64,000 nucleotides of DNA. Origin: Escherichia coli (GTDB taxonomy: Bacteria; Pseudomonadota; Gammaproteobacteria; Enterobacterales; Enterobacteriaceae). The DNA is taken from assembly GCF_045037415.1 (NCBI RefSeq), contig NZ_CP173438.1, one strand, 5' to 3'. Below are positions 15,788 through 19,998 of the stretch, in pieces (position 1 is the stretch's first letter; each line of letters begins with the position of its first letter). A model generated the notes under the pieces. It saw only the letters and a list, made by a program, of their open reading frames with translations. It was not told the DNA's origin and did not search any database. Position numbers and translations under genes: made by a program.

Positions 15788-15945
15788 GCGTCAATACGGT
15801 GCTCCGTTGACGCTTACCTTTCCTGTCATGGCCGGTTGATTCTGCAGACAGATGCTCAGGGGGCGTGGTTTGAGCATGATTTACATGCCCTGAGTGAGCA
15901 ACAGAAGGGTAAGCGTGCAGCAAGAACCGTATTGACGGGGATGTG

Positions 15946-17484
15946 TTATTCAGTCGGCAGTGCTACGCGCCAGGGGAGCAGTTCGCCGACCCGGTTTATC
16001 GGCCAGTCGGCTATGACGTCAAGGACATAGCGGAGGTAGCTTTCTGGCTCCACTCCGTTCAGTTTGCACGTCCCGATCAGGCTGTACAGCAGCGCTCCCC
16101 GCTCTCCTCCATGATCCGAACCGAAGAACAGGTAGTTTTTGCGGCCCAGACTGACCATCCGCAACGCATTTTCAGCGATGTTATTGTCCGCCTCAGCCCA
16201 GCCATCATCTGCATAGTACGTCAGCGCCGGCCACTGGTTCAGGGCGTATGCGAACGCTTTCGCCAGTTCTGAGTGTCGCGACAGGGTTTTCATCTTTTCA
16301 CGCAGCCAGCTTTCCAGGGATTTCAGCAGCGGTTTCGTTTTCAACTGACGTTCGGCAAGGCGCTGCTCCGCCGTCATTCCCCTTATCTCTGCCTCGATGG
16401 CGTACAGTTCGCCGATCCGTTTCAGCGCTTCCTCCGTCAGGGCTGACGGGGTGCGAACGTGCACATCGTGGATTTTACGGCGGGCGTGAGCCCAACAGGC
16501 GGCTTCCGTTATCCGGCCATCCCGGTACAGCTCGTTGAACCCGGCGTATGCATCCGCCTGCAGTACACCACTGAACCCCGCAAGATGGGTCTGCGGATGG
16601 ATGCCTTTTCTGTCCGGGCTGTAAGCGAACCACACCGCCGGCGCCAGCGTTGACCCGGCGTTACGGTCGTCACGAACGCAGGTCCATAACCGCCCGGTCT
16701 TCGTTTTCTTATTGCCTGGCAACAGCACCGGGACAGGCGTGTCATCAGCATGGAGCTTACCGTCAGTCAGCACATAGCCATGAAGCGCCTCTTCCAGCGG
16801 AGACAGCTGCCGGCAGCATGCATCCACCCAGCCCGACAGCAGTGAACGGCTCAGCTCCACACCTTGCCGGCCGTATATTTCTGACTGGCGATACAGCGGG
16901 GTGTGCTCTGCATACTTCGAGGTCAGCACGCGGGCCAGCAGCCCCGGTCCGGCGATACCCCGCTCGATGGGCCGCGAAGGTGCAGGTGCCTGCACGATGG
17001 CATCGCACTGAGTACAGGCATGTTTTTCCCGTACCGTCCGGATAACCCGGAAGGCGCTACGCATCAACTCCAGCTGTTCGGCGATATCCTCGCCCAGATA
17101 GCTCAGTGAACCGCCGCAGTTCGGGCAGCACGGCGCCGCAGGCAACAGTCGCTTTTCGTCACGGGGTAGTGATTCAGGGAACGGCTTACGGGTGCGGGTC
17201 TGACGCAACGGACGCTGTACTGCCGGGTCATACACCCTACCAGTCAGCGTATCGCTCTCTTTCTGAAGCCGGTTCAGATCGGCTTCCATTTGTGCGATAC
17301 GGCGGGAGACTTTTTCGGAACGACTGCCGAAGTTCATCCGGCGGAGTTTATCCAGCTGCGCCTGCAGATGGTCTATTTCGCGCTCCCGGTTGCTCAGCTT
17401 TTCCTGCAGGGCGTGGATCAGCGCTTCCTGTTCGGCCAGGCGCTGTTTCAGCAGGAAAATGTCGTCAGAAGAGATGTCGTTCAT
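15946..17484 (-). CDS. IS66-family transposase TnpC (divergent type, no cognate orfA/orfB)
   Basis: 512 aa from MNDISSDD...; complete TnpC domains; its ATG overlaps the TGA of the truncated upstream tnpC. Confidence 0.88.
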
Positions 17485-18581
17485 ACATCGTGTATTTTTC
17501 GCCGGGCATGGACCCAGCACGCAACTTCTGTCTGTGCATCACCTTCACGTTTGGCACTGAACAGCCGATCGTAACCGCTGAATGCATCCGCCTGCAGGAT
17601 ACCCCGGAAGGGACGAAGGTGTTGTACCGGATGTTTTCCCTGCCTGTCTGGTGAGTAGGCGAACCAGACCGCCGGTGGCTCTGATGAGCCCGCATTCCGG
17701 TCATCCCGGACATACGTCCAGATGCGTCCTGTTTTTGCCTTTTTTCTGCCCGGTGTCAGCACTTTTACCGGTGTGTCGTCAGTGTGAACCTTGCGGGTGT
17801 TCATCACGTAACGGTACAGGGCATCATTTAGCGGAGTCATTAACTGGCAGCACGCGTCAACCCAGTTGGAGATTAATGCACGGCTCAGTTCGGCACCCTG
17901 TCGGGCAAAGATTTCACTCTGACGATACAGTGGCAGGTGTTCGCAGTATTTTCCCGTTAACACGCGGGCAAGTAATCCGGAGCCCGCGATGCCGCGCGCT
18001 ATCGGGCGGGACGGCGCTGGCGCTTCAACTATACAGTCACATTTTGTACAGGCTTTTTTTACCCGAACAGTGCGGATCACTTTCAGGGCGCTACTCACCA
18101 GTTCCAGCTGCTCAGCACTGACTTCACCCAGATAATCCAGCTCACTGCCACACTCCGGGCAACAACTTTCTTCAGGCTCCAGGCGGTGTATTTCACGGGG
18201 AAGATGTGCTGGTAACGGACGACGATGACGTGACTGTCGCAACTGGCGGGGAACCTGCGGGTCATCCTCACGCCCACTGTAACGATCGCTTTCCTGTTCG
18301 CGTTGTTTCAGTTGGGCCTCAGCCTGTTCAACCTCACGCTGCAGTTTTTCAGAACGGGTACCGAACAGCATCCGGCGCAGTTTTTCTATCTGGGCCCTCA
18401 GATATTCTATTTCCCGCTCCTCCTCTTCGATCTTTTCTTCGGCACGTGCCAGTGCAGAGCGCAGGAAGGCCTCCGTCTCTTCAACCAGACTCAGTTGCAG
18501 ATCTCTCTGACGGAGGGCTTCAGCCTGCTCAGAGAGCAGCCTTTCCAGCTCAGTGATACGAATGAGGTATTTCCGACTCAT
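17481..18581 (-). pseudogene. IS66-family tnpC truncated after codon 366
   Basis: about 90 percent identical to the first 366 aa of the 14174-15787 TnpC; ends ...ARRKIHDV then stop. Confidence 0.8.
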
Positions 18582-18611
18582 GACCGTTTTTATAATCCGG
18601 CCATGACATTT

Positions 18612-18962
18612 TTACAACATTGTCAGTGCGTTAAGACGGGATGTTTTTGGCTGACGCCAGTCCAGCTTATCGAGGAGCATTGCCAGCTGCGAGCGGGTAA
18701 TGGATACCTTACCGTCACGCACCGCAGGCCAGATAAACAGGCCTTCCTCCAGGCGTTTGGTGAACAGGCACAGACCATCAGCATCAGCCCAGAGGATTTT
18801 AATCATGTCACTCCGTCGGCCACGGAAGATGAACAGGTGACCGGAGAAGGGGTTCTCATCCAGCACATGTTGTACCTGTTCACCCAGACCGTTGAAGGAT
18901 TTACGCATATCAGTAACGCCGGCAACCAGCGAGATTCGAGTGTCTGATGGGAGCGAGATCAT
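18612..18962 (-). CDS. IS66-family TnpB (orfB), second copy
   Basis: 116 aa, close homologue of 13793-14143. Confidence 0.9.
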   Translation of the reverse strand: MISLPSDTRISLVAGVTDMRKSFNGLGEQVQHVLDENPFSGHLFIFRGRRSDMIKILWADADGLCLFTKRLEEGLFIWPAVRDGKVSITRSQLAMLLDKLDWRQPKTSRLNALTML

Positions 18963-19384
18963 CGCCCCCTCCCGGTCAGTTCACGGATCAACACCGTGAG
19001 CAGCTCTGGTGAAGGATTTTCCAGCGTCATGTTACCGTGGCGGAACTCAACTTTACAGGAACTGGCACTGACTGTGCTTTGTGAAGGAGTGGATAAAAGC
19101 GGAGTAAGAGCCGCCATAGGCTCTTTCTGCTCATCAGGCGTTATCTCAACAGGTAATAATTCAACGCCAGCGTCAGAAGAGGTTGTTACCGGAAGACGCC
19201 GCGATATACGCCCTTCGTTCTGCCAGAGCCTGAGCCATTTGAACAGGAGGTTATCATTGATATCGTGTTCCCTGGCAATACGGGCAACAGAGGCTCCTAG
19301 TTGTGAAGCCAGTTTAACCATTTGAAGTTTAAACTCATTTGAAAATGTTCTGCGGGGTTCTGCGGATAATATTTTCTGTTCCAT
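18959..19384 (-). CDS. IS66-family TnpA (orfA), second copy
   Basis: 141 aa, about 80 percent identical to 13371-13796. Confidence 0.9.
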   Translation of the reverse strand: MEQKILSAEPRRTFSNEFKLQMVKLASQLGASVARIAREHDINDNLLFKWLRLWQNEGRISRRLPVTTSSDAGVELLPVEITPDEQKEPMAALTPLLSTPSQSTVSASSCKVEFRHGNMTLENPSPELLTVLIRELTGRGR

Positions 19385-19998
19385 AACAGGTGTCCACTAG
19401 TTGATGAAAAGGTGGGCACCTACGTTACCAATACTGGCTTAATGGCTACATACGGCGGTCAGTTTACGCTTACCATGTATCTGGCGAGTGAAGCTTTATG
19501 TCGTGTTCTGGCGTGTCCTGTGTTAGTTAGAACACGCCATCGATGGTCAGCAGGTTCATATTGCACCAGAGCGGATACAGCGTGGTGTTATGTCAGGGCT
19601 GCGCTGTTTACGTGAACACGTGGCGTACGGCCCCGCTTCCTGGCCCTGCTGGGCATGGATCACGGCGCGACAAAGGGGCGACTACCTGGCAGCATGTGTC
19701 CAGCCGGTTCACAATCTGGTGAAGGTTCCTTACGCTCATGGGCCATACTGATAATTCACCAGGCCATCATTTCCAGAGGAAGACGCCGTTTGCGTAGCGT
19801 GACAGTGTCGGACTCTTCAGGGCTGTGGGTAATCAGTTCCGGGGCAAGATAGTCGCAGAGGGTTACGCAGAGAATAGTAACTGGACACTGGATCGATCAA
19901 CCGATCCTTAACTGAGCGGCATGACAGCTTTCTGATGGTTTTTTTTTGATAATCTTCACATTGTGCTTCTTTTCTGTTGGATAATCTTTGTACTTGAT

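What the first reader, a model, noticed from the sequence alone, without database searches (positions are those of the whole stretch)
15909..19473. Hybrid IS66-family element: truncated tnpC fused at an ATGA overlap to a second complete tnpC
On the minus strand orfA and orfB are followed by a tnpC that stops after codon 366 (...[13 protein letters not shown]), and its TGA overlaps the ATG of a different, complete IS66-family tnpC (MNDISSDD..., 15946-17484). The second gene has no orfA/orfB of its own and no left inverted repeat at the junction, while an IS66-type repeat closes the structure at 15909. The outer flanks carry no matching 8-bp duplication. This looks like a chimera from illegitimate or IS-mediated recombination between two IS66-family members, possibly involving a single-ORF type.
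Basis: seen in the sequence. Interest (0 to 1): 0.45.

Follow-up and report, generated by a model that had tools for sequence, protein, structure and literature searches.

The report
Fused remnant of two IS66 elements
Two different jumping genes of the IS66 family, sitting in an IS-rich E. coli virulence island, were welded into one immobile leftover by a deletion; this is ordinary genome decay that one successful lineage has inherited.

Summary
On the minus strand, 15909-19473 (3,565 bp) starts with an IS66-type end, tnpA, tnpB and a tnpC cut after codon 366. The TGA of that tnpC overlaps the ATG of a second, complete 512-aa tnpC, which is followed by an IS66-type end. The flanks (GATACATG / CCTTCTGT) are not a target duplication.

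The left 1,991 bp is 97.2% identical to IS682. The right 1,577 bp is 99.4% identical to a 2,442-bp ISEc8/ISEc22-group element. Native copies of that element carry tnpA-tnpB-tnpC and 8-bp duplications, so it is not a single-ORF type.

The two parts meet in a 3-nt microhomology (TAT), away from any IS end and not at homologous gene positions. The right end abuts a zinc-ribbon gene exactly as a normal insertion would.

Best explanation: two separately inserted elements in the same orientation were joined by an illegitimate-recombination deletion. That deletion removed the IS682 3' end, the DNA between the elements, and the second element's left end with tnpA and tnpB.

The identical junction occurs in 658 of 5,426 complete E. 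coli genomes, including JJ1886. The copies examined sit at the same locus, and I found none with its own duplication. It is therefore not an assembly artefact and shows no sign of mobility. Both tnpC genes carry changes at conserved residues. Verdict: ordinary, low interest.

The parts
19530..19927 (-). Degenerate IS4-family transposase N-terminal remnant, just outside the left end of the chimera
   Evidence: PGAP pseudogene 'transposase domain-containing protein' (frameshifted, internal stop) in the identical RefSeq locus. Pfam Nterm_IS4, E = 1.2e-8, on the frame translation. No similarity to IS66 TnpC.
19450..19473 (-). Left terminal inverted repeat of the IS682-like part (GTAAGCGTAAACTGACCGCCGTAT). 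The outside flank is GATACATG.
   Evidence: Identical to the IRL of native IS682 in L005. Repeat families D8 and I3.
18959..19384 (-). tnpA of the IS682-like part (141 aa)
   Evidence: NCBIfam IS66 TnpA models NF047595 and NF038385. It differs from IS682 by 5 nonsynonymous and 2 synonymous codons.
18612..18962 (-). tnpB of the IS682-like part (116 aa), overlapping tnpA by ATGA
   Evidence: NCBIfam NF033819 IS66_TnpB, E = 2.3e-33.
17481..18581 (-). Truncated IS682-like tnpC (366 aa). It lacks the last 43% of the DDE domain and the C-terminal element.
   Evidence: Pfam DDE_Tnp_IS66 matched only to profile positions 1-163 of 284. 97.2% nt identity to IS682 up to window 17483. PGAP marks it as a pseudogene missing its C-terminus. 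It carries substitutions at residues conserved in the other three TnpC proteins ([10 protein letters not shown] to PIARGIAGSG, CWAHARR to CWVHARR).
17483..17485 (-). Recombination junction: TAT is shared by both parents
   Evidence: Three-way alignment of chimera, IS682 and the native ISEc8-like element. IS682 homology ends at 17483. Exact ISEc8-like homology starts at 17485.
15946..17484 (-). Complete tnpC (512 aa) of an ISEc8/ISEc22-group element
   Evidence: All four Pfam IS66 TnpC domains are present. 99.4% nt identity to native plasmid copies. 2 nonsynonymous codons (T134I, Y269C) and 1 synonymous codon differ from native L002.
15909..15940 (-). Right terminal inverted repeat of the ISEc8-like part. 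The outside flank is CCTTCTGT.
   Evidence: Identical to the IRR of native copies. Inverted repeat I5.
15818..15908 (+). Internal fragment of a zinc-ribbon (DUF7828) gene, lying between ISEc23 and the chimera
   Evidence: PGAP annotation. The fragment is colinear with the intact gene in L008 right up to the IS end.
13286..15817 (+). Complete ISEc23 (2,532 bp) with the 8-bp duplication CTTTCCTG. It is a separate, later insertion and not part of the chimera.
   Evidence: Sequence at both ends. PGAP names it 'ISEc23 family transposase'. Its end is not matched in sampled chimera-bearing genomes: hits stop at query position 3784.

Best explanation
The structure is an immobile IS remnant. An IS682 isoform and a 2,442-bp ISEc8/ISEc22-group element inserted independently, in the same orientation, into a pathogenicity island. 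The island carries pap, aerobactin, sat, iha, a nan-like cluster and Ag43. IS682 landed next to an IS4-family remnant, and the ISEc8-like element landed inside a zinc-ribbon (DUF7828) gene.

A single deletion by illegitimate, microhomology-guided recombination then joined IS682 tnpC nucleotide 1098 to the start codon of the ISEc8-like tnpC. It removed four things:
- the last 542 bp of IS682;
- all the DNA between the two elements, including the last 239 bp of the zinc-ribbon gene;
- the first 865 bp of the ISEc8-like element, which held its IRL, tnpA and tnpB;
- the hairpin that in the native element pairs with the tnpC start codon.

The ATGA overlap is a by-product of where the breakpoint fell. 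The product has mismatched ends, no target duplication and one catalytically incomplete TnpC. It has been inherited vertically in one E. coli lineage.

Shown: the identity of both parents, the breakpoint, the absence of a duplication, and the junction's presence in 658 genomes, with the same flanks in every copy examined.
Inferred: the order of events, the single-deletion mechanism and the loss of mobility.
For: Parents:
- Left part: 97.2% identity over 1,991 bp to IS682. Native IS682 is 2,533 bp with the duplication TCTTTCTC.
- Right part: 99.4% identity over about 1,590 bp to native elements on plasmids. These are 2,442 bp, encode tnpA-tnpB-tnpC and carry 8-bp duplications in two different contexts.

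Breakpoint:
- It is a 3-nt microhomology, TAT. Only 1.8% of random position pairs share 3 nt or more.
- It lies at no IS end and joins non-homologous positions of the two genes.

Right end: the zinc-ribbon gene runs uninterrupted up to the IRR when compared with the intact gene in L008 (...CAGTCCG|CCTTCTGT|TGCTC). This is the signature of a normal transposition of the ISEc8-like element into that gene.

Distribution:
- Junction in 658 of 5,426 complete genomes, median one place per genome.
- Left boundary in 672 genomes and right boundary in 705.
- Full-length hits sampled through the top ~600 ranks all cover both flanks at 99.6% identity or more.
- The one 'plasmid' hit, CP088753.1, has a ROK-family gene fragment upstream, as the chromosomal locus has a kinase gene upstream. 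I read it as a chromosomal fragment.

Decay: substitutions at conserved residues in both tnpC genes. The truncated TnpC ends at Pfam DDE profile position 163 of 284.
Against: - No genome with the predicted ancestral state was found. A synthetic probe for an intact ISEc8-like left end at the same zinc-ribbon site matched 0 of 5,426 genomes. The deleted DNA and the order of events therefore remain inferred.
- A 3-nt microhomology is weak mechanistic evidence. The patchy similarity upstream of the breakpoint is not unusual: 16% of random position pairs score as well.
- The complete tnpC reading frame is preserved and translationally coupled. I attribute that to chance and to the young age of the event, but it could reflect selection.
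- Immobility is inferred from distribution only. No transposition assay was possible.
Confidence: 0.8

Rival explanations
1. Nested insertion followed by deletions. The ISEc8-like element transposed into the tnpC of IS682. Later deletions removed its IRL, tnpA and tnpB on one side and the distal IS682 sequence on the other.
For: IS66-family elements do pile up on one another. In O121:H19 (L007) a truncated IS66-type tnpC is followed directly by a complete ISEc8. O157:H7 has adjacent ISEc8 and IS66-like copies.
Against: The IRR of the ISEc8-like part abuts zinc-ribbon gene sequence that is colinear with the intact gene, not the rest of IS682 tnpC. This route therefore needs at least two extra deletions, one of them ending exactly at the IS terminus.
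Confidence: 0.08
2. Functional hybrid IS, or a regulatory module. The chimera moves using the IS682 IRL, the ISEc8-like IRR, IS682 TnpA and TnpB, and ISEc8-like TnpC. Alternatively, the truncated TnpC, which keeps the leucine zipper and zinc finger, acts as a trans-inhibitor, and the coupled intact TnpC supplies transposase to other copies.
For: - All four reading frames are open.
- The ATGA overlap allows translational coupling, the mode described for IS66-family genes (PMC3469429, citing Han et al. 2001).
- The deletion removed the 5' arm of the hairpin that pairs with the tnpC AUG in the native element.
- Both ends start with GTAAGCGT.
Against: - No target duplication.
- Median of one place per genome for the junction probe, and the same flanks in every sampled copy.
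- The two ends diverge after the first 9 nt.
- Substitutions at conserved residues: Y269C in the intact TnpC, and A357V in the CWAH motif plus E195A in the truncated one.
Confidence: 0.04
3. Assembly artefact: two separate IS66-family copies collapsed into one.
For: IS66-family copies are numerous in these genomes (median 5 places per genome), which is the usual cause of misassembly.
Against: The identical junction, with the same flanks in every sampled copy, occurs in 658 independently assembled complete genomes from many laboratories. The two halves share no extended similarity at the joined positions that could cause a collapse.
Confidence: 0.01

Closest known systems
IS682 (IS66 family, E. 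coli; PGAP 'IS66-like element IS682 family transposase')
   Same: The left 1,991 bp (IRL, tnpA, tnpB and the first 1,098 nt of tnpC) is 97.2% identical and colinear. The IRL is identical over the 43 nt of element sequence compared.
   Different: The last 542 bp (tnpC codons 367-537 and the IRR) are missing. There is no 8-bp duplication. Several substitutions fall at conserved residues.
ISEc8 / ISEc22 group (IS66 family): a 2,442-bp element on E. coli plasmids such as pSCU-387-1
   Same: The right 1,577 bp (complete tnpC and IRR) is 99.4% identical to these native copies.
   Different: The IRL, tnpA, tnpB and the tnpB-tnpC hairpin (865 bp) are missing. Identity is only 91.8% to copies PGAP names ISEc8 and 94.2% to those it names ISEc22. 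It is therefore a close relative of both, not clearly either.
IS fragments fused by deletion or rearrangement in IS-rich genomic islands (general phenomenon)
   Same: The breakpoints lie inside the elements, the ends are mismatched, there is no target duplication, the copies examined sit at one locus, and other IS remnants surround it.
   Different: By chance the breakpoint falls exactly at a start codon. A full transposase frame survives, overlapping the upstream stop codon.
   Same: In the chimera the second tnpC has no tnpA or tnpB of its own.
   Different: Its native form has tnpA and tnpB. The single-gene state here is the result of deletion.

Membership tests
IS66 family (canonical three-ORF element) | tnpA, tnpB and tnpC in that order, with tnpA and tnpB overlapping (translational coupling) | tested here: met
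   This holds for the left part and for the chimera as a whole: NCBIfam TnpA, TnpB and TnpC matches and an ATGA overlap at 18962-18959. The right part on its own has only tnpC.
IS66 family (canonical three-ORF element) | TnpC with leucine zipper, zinc finger, complete DDE_Tnp_IS66 domain and C-terminal element | tested here: met
   Met by the 512-aa TnpC. Not met by the 366-aa TnpC, whose DDE match covers only profile positions 1-163 of 284.
IS66 family (canonical three-ORF element) | Matched terminal inverted repeats beginning GTAAGCG | tested here: inconclusive
   Both ends begin GTAAGCGT, but they come from different elements and diverge after about 9 nt. Whether one transposase can use both ends is not testable here.
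IS66 family (canonical three-ORF element) | 8-bp target-site duplication | tested here: not met
   The flanks are GATACATG and CCTTCTGT. Native IS682, native ISEc8-like copies and the adjacent ISEc23 all have 8-bp duplications.
IS66 family (canonical three-ORF element) | Mobility: copies in different genomic contexts | tested here: not met
   The junction is in 658 genomes, with a median of one place per genome. All sampled full-length hits share both flanks.
IS682 (isoform level) | More than 95% nucleotide identity to the reference element (ISfinder convention, recalled from memory) | tested here: met
   97.2% over the retained 1,991 bp, against a copy PGAP names IS682. No direct ISfinder comparison was possible.
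ISEc8 / ISEc22 (isoform level) | More than 95% nucleotide identity to the reference element | tested here: not met
   91.8% to copies PGAP names ISEc8 and 94.2% to those named ISEc22. 99.4% to copies PGAP leaves as generic 'IS66 family'.
Single-ORF IS66 relatives (ISBst12 group) | Native element consists of tnpC alone between its own two inverted repeats | tested here: not met
   Native copies 99.4% identical to the right part carry tnpA and tnpB between the IRL and tnpC.

The most novel reading that the evidence does not exclude
The deletion accidentally produced a deregulated transposase source. The intact ISEc8-like TnpC has lost the hairpin that normally pairs with its start codon, and it is now translationally coupled to a DNA-binding but catalytically dead IS682 TnpC fragment. 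The locus could then modulate the activity of the many IS66-family copies in this lineage, either by supplying transposase in trans or by dominant-negative inhibition.
Probability: 0.04. Interest if true: 0.45.

Novelty: new member of a known kind. Interest (0 to 1): 0.1.

Why it matters
It matters little biologically. It is one more scar of IS-driven decay in a pathogenicity island. There are three practical uses:
- The junction is a clean, single-copy marker. It is present in 658 of 5,426 complete E. coli genomes, including JJ1886, and could serve in lineage typing.
- It is a caution for annotation. An intact 'IS66 family transposase' gene does not imply an intact element.
- It shows that the ISEc8/ISEc22-group element involved is a normal three-ORF IS.

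Tried and rejected
1. Same chimera in EHEC genomes. About 375 further genomes covered at least 80% of the 3.8-kb query. Inspection of O157:H7 and O121:H19 examples showed different arrangements of neighbouring IS66-family copies that the search tool had joined. They do not share this junction.

2. Ancestral state. A synthetic probe joining the intact zinc-ribbon gene, the duplication CCTTCTGT and the ISEc8-like IRL matched no genome at 80% coverage or more.

3. Right boundary without the junction. One example, L009, is a further-deleted derivative that keeps only about 200 bp of the tnpC 3' end. It is not an ancestor.

4. Plasmid-borne copy. The only plasmid record spanning the junction, CP088753.1, has a ROK-family gene fragment upstream and many fragmented genes. 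I read it as a misassigned chromosomal fragment with sequencing errors.

5. Homology-driven recombination. The similarity between the two parents upstream of the breakpoint (GCCCGG..AAAATAC) is no better than in 16% of random position pairs. Homologous recombination at the shared ARRKIHDV motif would give an in-frame hybrid tnpC, which is not what is seen.

6. Left flank as another IS66 fragment. tblastn gave no hit. Pfam identifies it as an IS4-family N-terminal remnant.

7. Literature. Searches found no description of this chimera. Han et al. 2001 could not be opened. A text search for the CwAH motif returned nothing usable.
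Full report
**What is there**

- An IS66-type terminus (GTAAGCGTAAACTG...) starts at 19473.
- tnpA runs 19384-18959 (141 aa).
- tnpB runs 18962-18612 (116 aa) and overlaps tnpA by ATGA.
- A tnpC starts at 18581 and stops at 17481 after 366 codons (...[13 protein letters not shown]).
- Its TGA overlaps the ATG (17484) of a second tnpC of 512 codons (MNDISSDD...), which ends at 15946.
- A second IS66-type terminus closes the structure at 15909.
- The 8-bp flanks are GATACATG on the left and CCTTCTGT on the right, so there is no target duplication.
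- NCBIfam assigns the four products to IS66 TnpA, TnpB and TnpC.
- Pfam finds all four TnpC domains in the 512-aa protein. In the 366-aa protein the DDE_Tnp_IS66 match ends at profile position 163 of 284, and the C-terminal element is absent.
- The conserved ADNNxAENALR stretch lies downstream of the truncation point. From my own knowledge of DDE transposases and the IS66 family description, I take this stretch to hold the catalytic glutamate. The short protein should therefore be catalytically dead. This is an inference.

**The two parents**

The left 1,991 bp (19473-17483) is 97.2% identical and colinear with copies that PGAP names IS682. A native IS682 is 2,533 bp long with the duplication TCTTTCTC.

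The right part (17485-15909) is 99.4% identical to elements on E. coli plasmids. Two such copies, in different plasmids, are 2,442 bp long. They encode tnpA (381 nt), tnpB (348 nt) and tnpC (1,539 nt), and they carry perfect 8-bp duplications, GTTCTGAT and AAATGTCA.

The second parent is therefore an ordinary, active, three-ORF IS66-family element. It is not a single-ORF type. It is 91.8% identical to copies PGAP calls ISEc8 and 94.2% identical to those called ISEc22. I describe it as a member of the ISEc8/ISEc22 group and do not assign it to either.

**The junction**

A three-way alignment gives:
- IS682: ...AAAAATCCACGATGTAT|ACATCAGC
- chimera: ...AAAAATACACGATGTAT|GAACGACA
- native ISEc8-like: ...AAAATACGGGCTTAT|GAACGACA

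The crossover lies within a shared TAT (17485-17483). It is at no IS terminus. It joins codon 366 of one tnpC to codon 1 of the other. Transposase-mediated joining and homologous recombination are therefore both excluded.

A 3-nt microhomology occurs at 1.8% of random position pairs. The patchy similarity further upstream is unremarkable, since 16% of random pairs score as well.

In the native ISEc8-like element, the breakpoint sits at the 3' foot of a 9-bp hairpin (AUAAGCCCG...CGGGCUUAU; -20.1 kcal/mol, z = -3.9). This hairpin pairs with the first two bases of the tnpC AUG. IS682 has an analogous hairpin over its own tnpC AUG. A hairpin could favour a deletion endpoint at that spot, but that is speculation.

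**How it arose**

The right terminus abuts an internal fragment of a zinc-ribbon (DUF7828) gene. Compared with the intact gene in another genome, the gene sequence runs uninterrupted up to the IS end (...CAGTCCG|CCTTCTGT|TGCTC). That is exactly what a normal transposition of the ISEc8-like element into this gene would leave.

The left terminus abuts a degenerate IS4-family transposase remnant.

The simplest history has two steps. First, two independent insertions occurred in the same orientation. Second, one illegitimate deletion ran from IS682 tnpC nucleotide 1098 to the ISEc8-like tnpC start. That deletion removed 542 bp of IS682, the DNA between the elements (including the 3' 239 bp of the zinc-ribbon gene) and 865 bp of the ISEc8-like element.

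A nested-insertion origin would need at least two further deletions, one of them ending exactly at an IS terminus.

I could not find the ancestral configuration. A synthetic probe for it matched none of 5,426 complete genomes.

**Distribution**

- A 100-bp probe centred on the junction matches at 80% coverage or more in 658 of 5,426 complete E. coli genomes, with a median of one place per genome. JJ1886 is among them; from my own knowledge it is an ST131 strain.
- The left boundary is found in 672 genomes and the right boundary in 705.
- Full-length hits sampled at even steps through the top ~600 ranks all include both flanks at 99.6% identity or more.
- The excess of boundary hits over junction hits is explained, at least in part, by further-deleted derivatives.
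- The only plasmid record with the junction looks like a misassigned chromosomal fragment.
- About 375 EHEC genomes that seemed to cover most of the 3.8-kb query have different IS66 arrangements.

The chimera is therefore real, appears to be vertically inherited, and shows no sign of having moved since it formed.

**Signs of decay**

Relative to native copies, the truncated IS682 tnpC has 12-13 nonsynonymous against 6-16 synonymous codon differences. Some of these fall at positions that are invariant in the other three TnpC proteins of this analysis (E195A, P to S in GPGLLA, A357V in CWAHARR). The intact ISEc8-like tnpC carries T134I and Y269C, the latter in the conserved WTYVRDD stretch. The open 512-codon frame is best explained by the young age of the event, given 99.4% identity to active copies.

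**Context**

The window is part of a pathogenicity island that carries pap, iuc/iutA, sat, iha, a nan-like sialic-acid cluster and Ag43, and it is littered with IS remnants. A complete ISEc23 (13286-15817, plus strand, duplication CTTTCCTG) lies 91 bp from the chimera in the same zinc-ribbon gene. It is about 89% identical to the IS682 part. Its end is not matched in sampled chimera-bearing genomes, so it appears to be a later insertion.

**Comparison with known things, and verdict**

Functionally and structurally this is a fused pair of IS66-family fragments.
- It meets the family's gene-content criteria.
- It fails the target-duplication and mobility criteria.
- Its two ends come from different elements.

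I found no publication that describes it. RefSeq already annotates it in hundreds of genomes as a partial tnpC followed by a complete tnpC. It is an unremarkable new example of a well-known kind of IS decay.

The only mildly interesting residue is the accidental translational coupling of a dead TnpC fragment to an intact TnpC that has lost the hairpin over its start codon. Translational coupling is the mode reported for IS66-family genes (PMC3469429, citing Han et al. 2001). I give about a 4% chance that this has any regulatory consequence.

Noticed in passing
window 18575-18606 (-), and L002 3490-3516: In both native parents the tnpB-tnpC spacer forms a stable hairpin whose 3' arm includes the tnpC AUG. 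In the ISEc8-like element it is AUAAGCCCG/CGGGCUUAU (z = -3.9). In IS682 it is CAUGGCCGG/CGGUCAUG. The sequences differ but the structure is the same, which suggests conserved translational control of tnpC in IS66-family elements.
   Followed up: partly
window 13286-15817 (+): Complete ISEc23 (2,532 bp) with the 8-bp duplication CTTTCCTG, inserted in the same zinc-ribbon gene 91 bp from the chimera and in the opposite orientation. It forms a 1.9-kb, 89% inverted repeat with the IS682 part, which could drive inversions. Its end is not matched in sampled chimera-bearing genomes.
   Followed up: partly
window 19530-19927 (-): Degenerate IS4-family transposase N-terminal remnant between the nan-like cluster and the chimera (Pfam Nterm_IS4, E = 1.2e-8).
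   Followed up: partly
window 33142-33292 (-): An isolated fragment encoding the last ~50 residues of an IS66-family TnpC (about 60% identity to both TnpC proteins). It probably corresponds to a 'transposase domain-containing protein' pseudogene that the matching RefSeq record annotates near iha.
   Followed up: no
L009 (NZ_CP099754.1), locus 5843-6043: A derivative of the same locus keeps only about 200 bp of the ISEc8-like tnpC 3' end. IS110-family and IS3-family elements and a truncated iutA now lie beside it. The island has therefore kept losing DNA around this site.
   Followed up: partly
L006, L007, L008 (O157:H7, O121:H19 and another strain carrying efa1/lifA): Different pile-ups of ISEc8 and IS682/ISEc23-like copies lie next to efa1/lifA or its remnants. 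In O121:H19 a truncated IS66-type tnpC is followed directly by a complete ISEc8. IS66-family elements seem to cluster repeatedly in islands.
   Followed up: no
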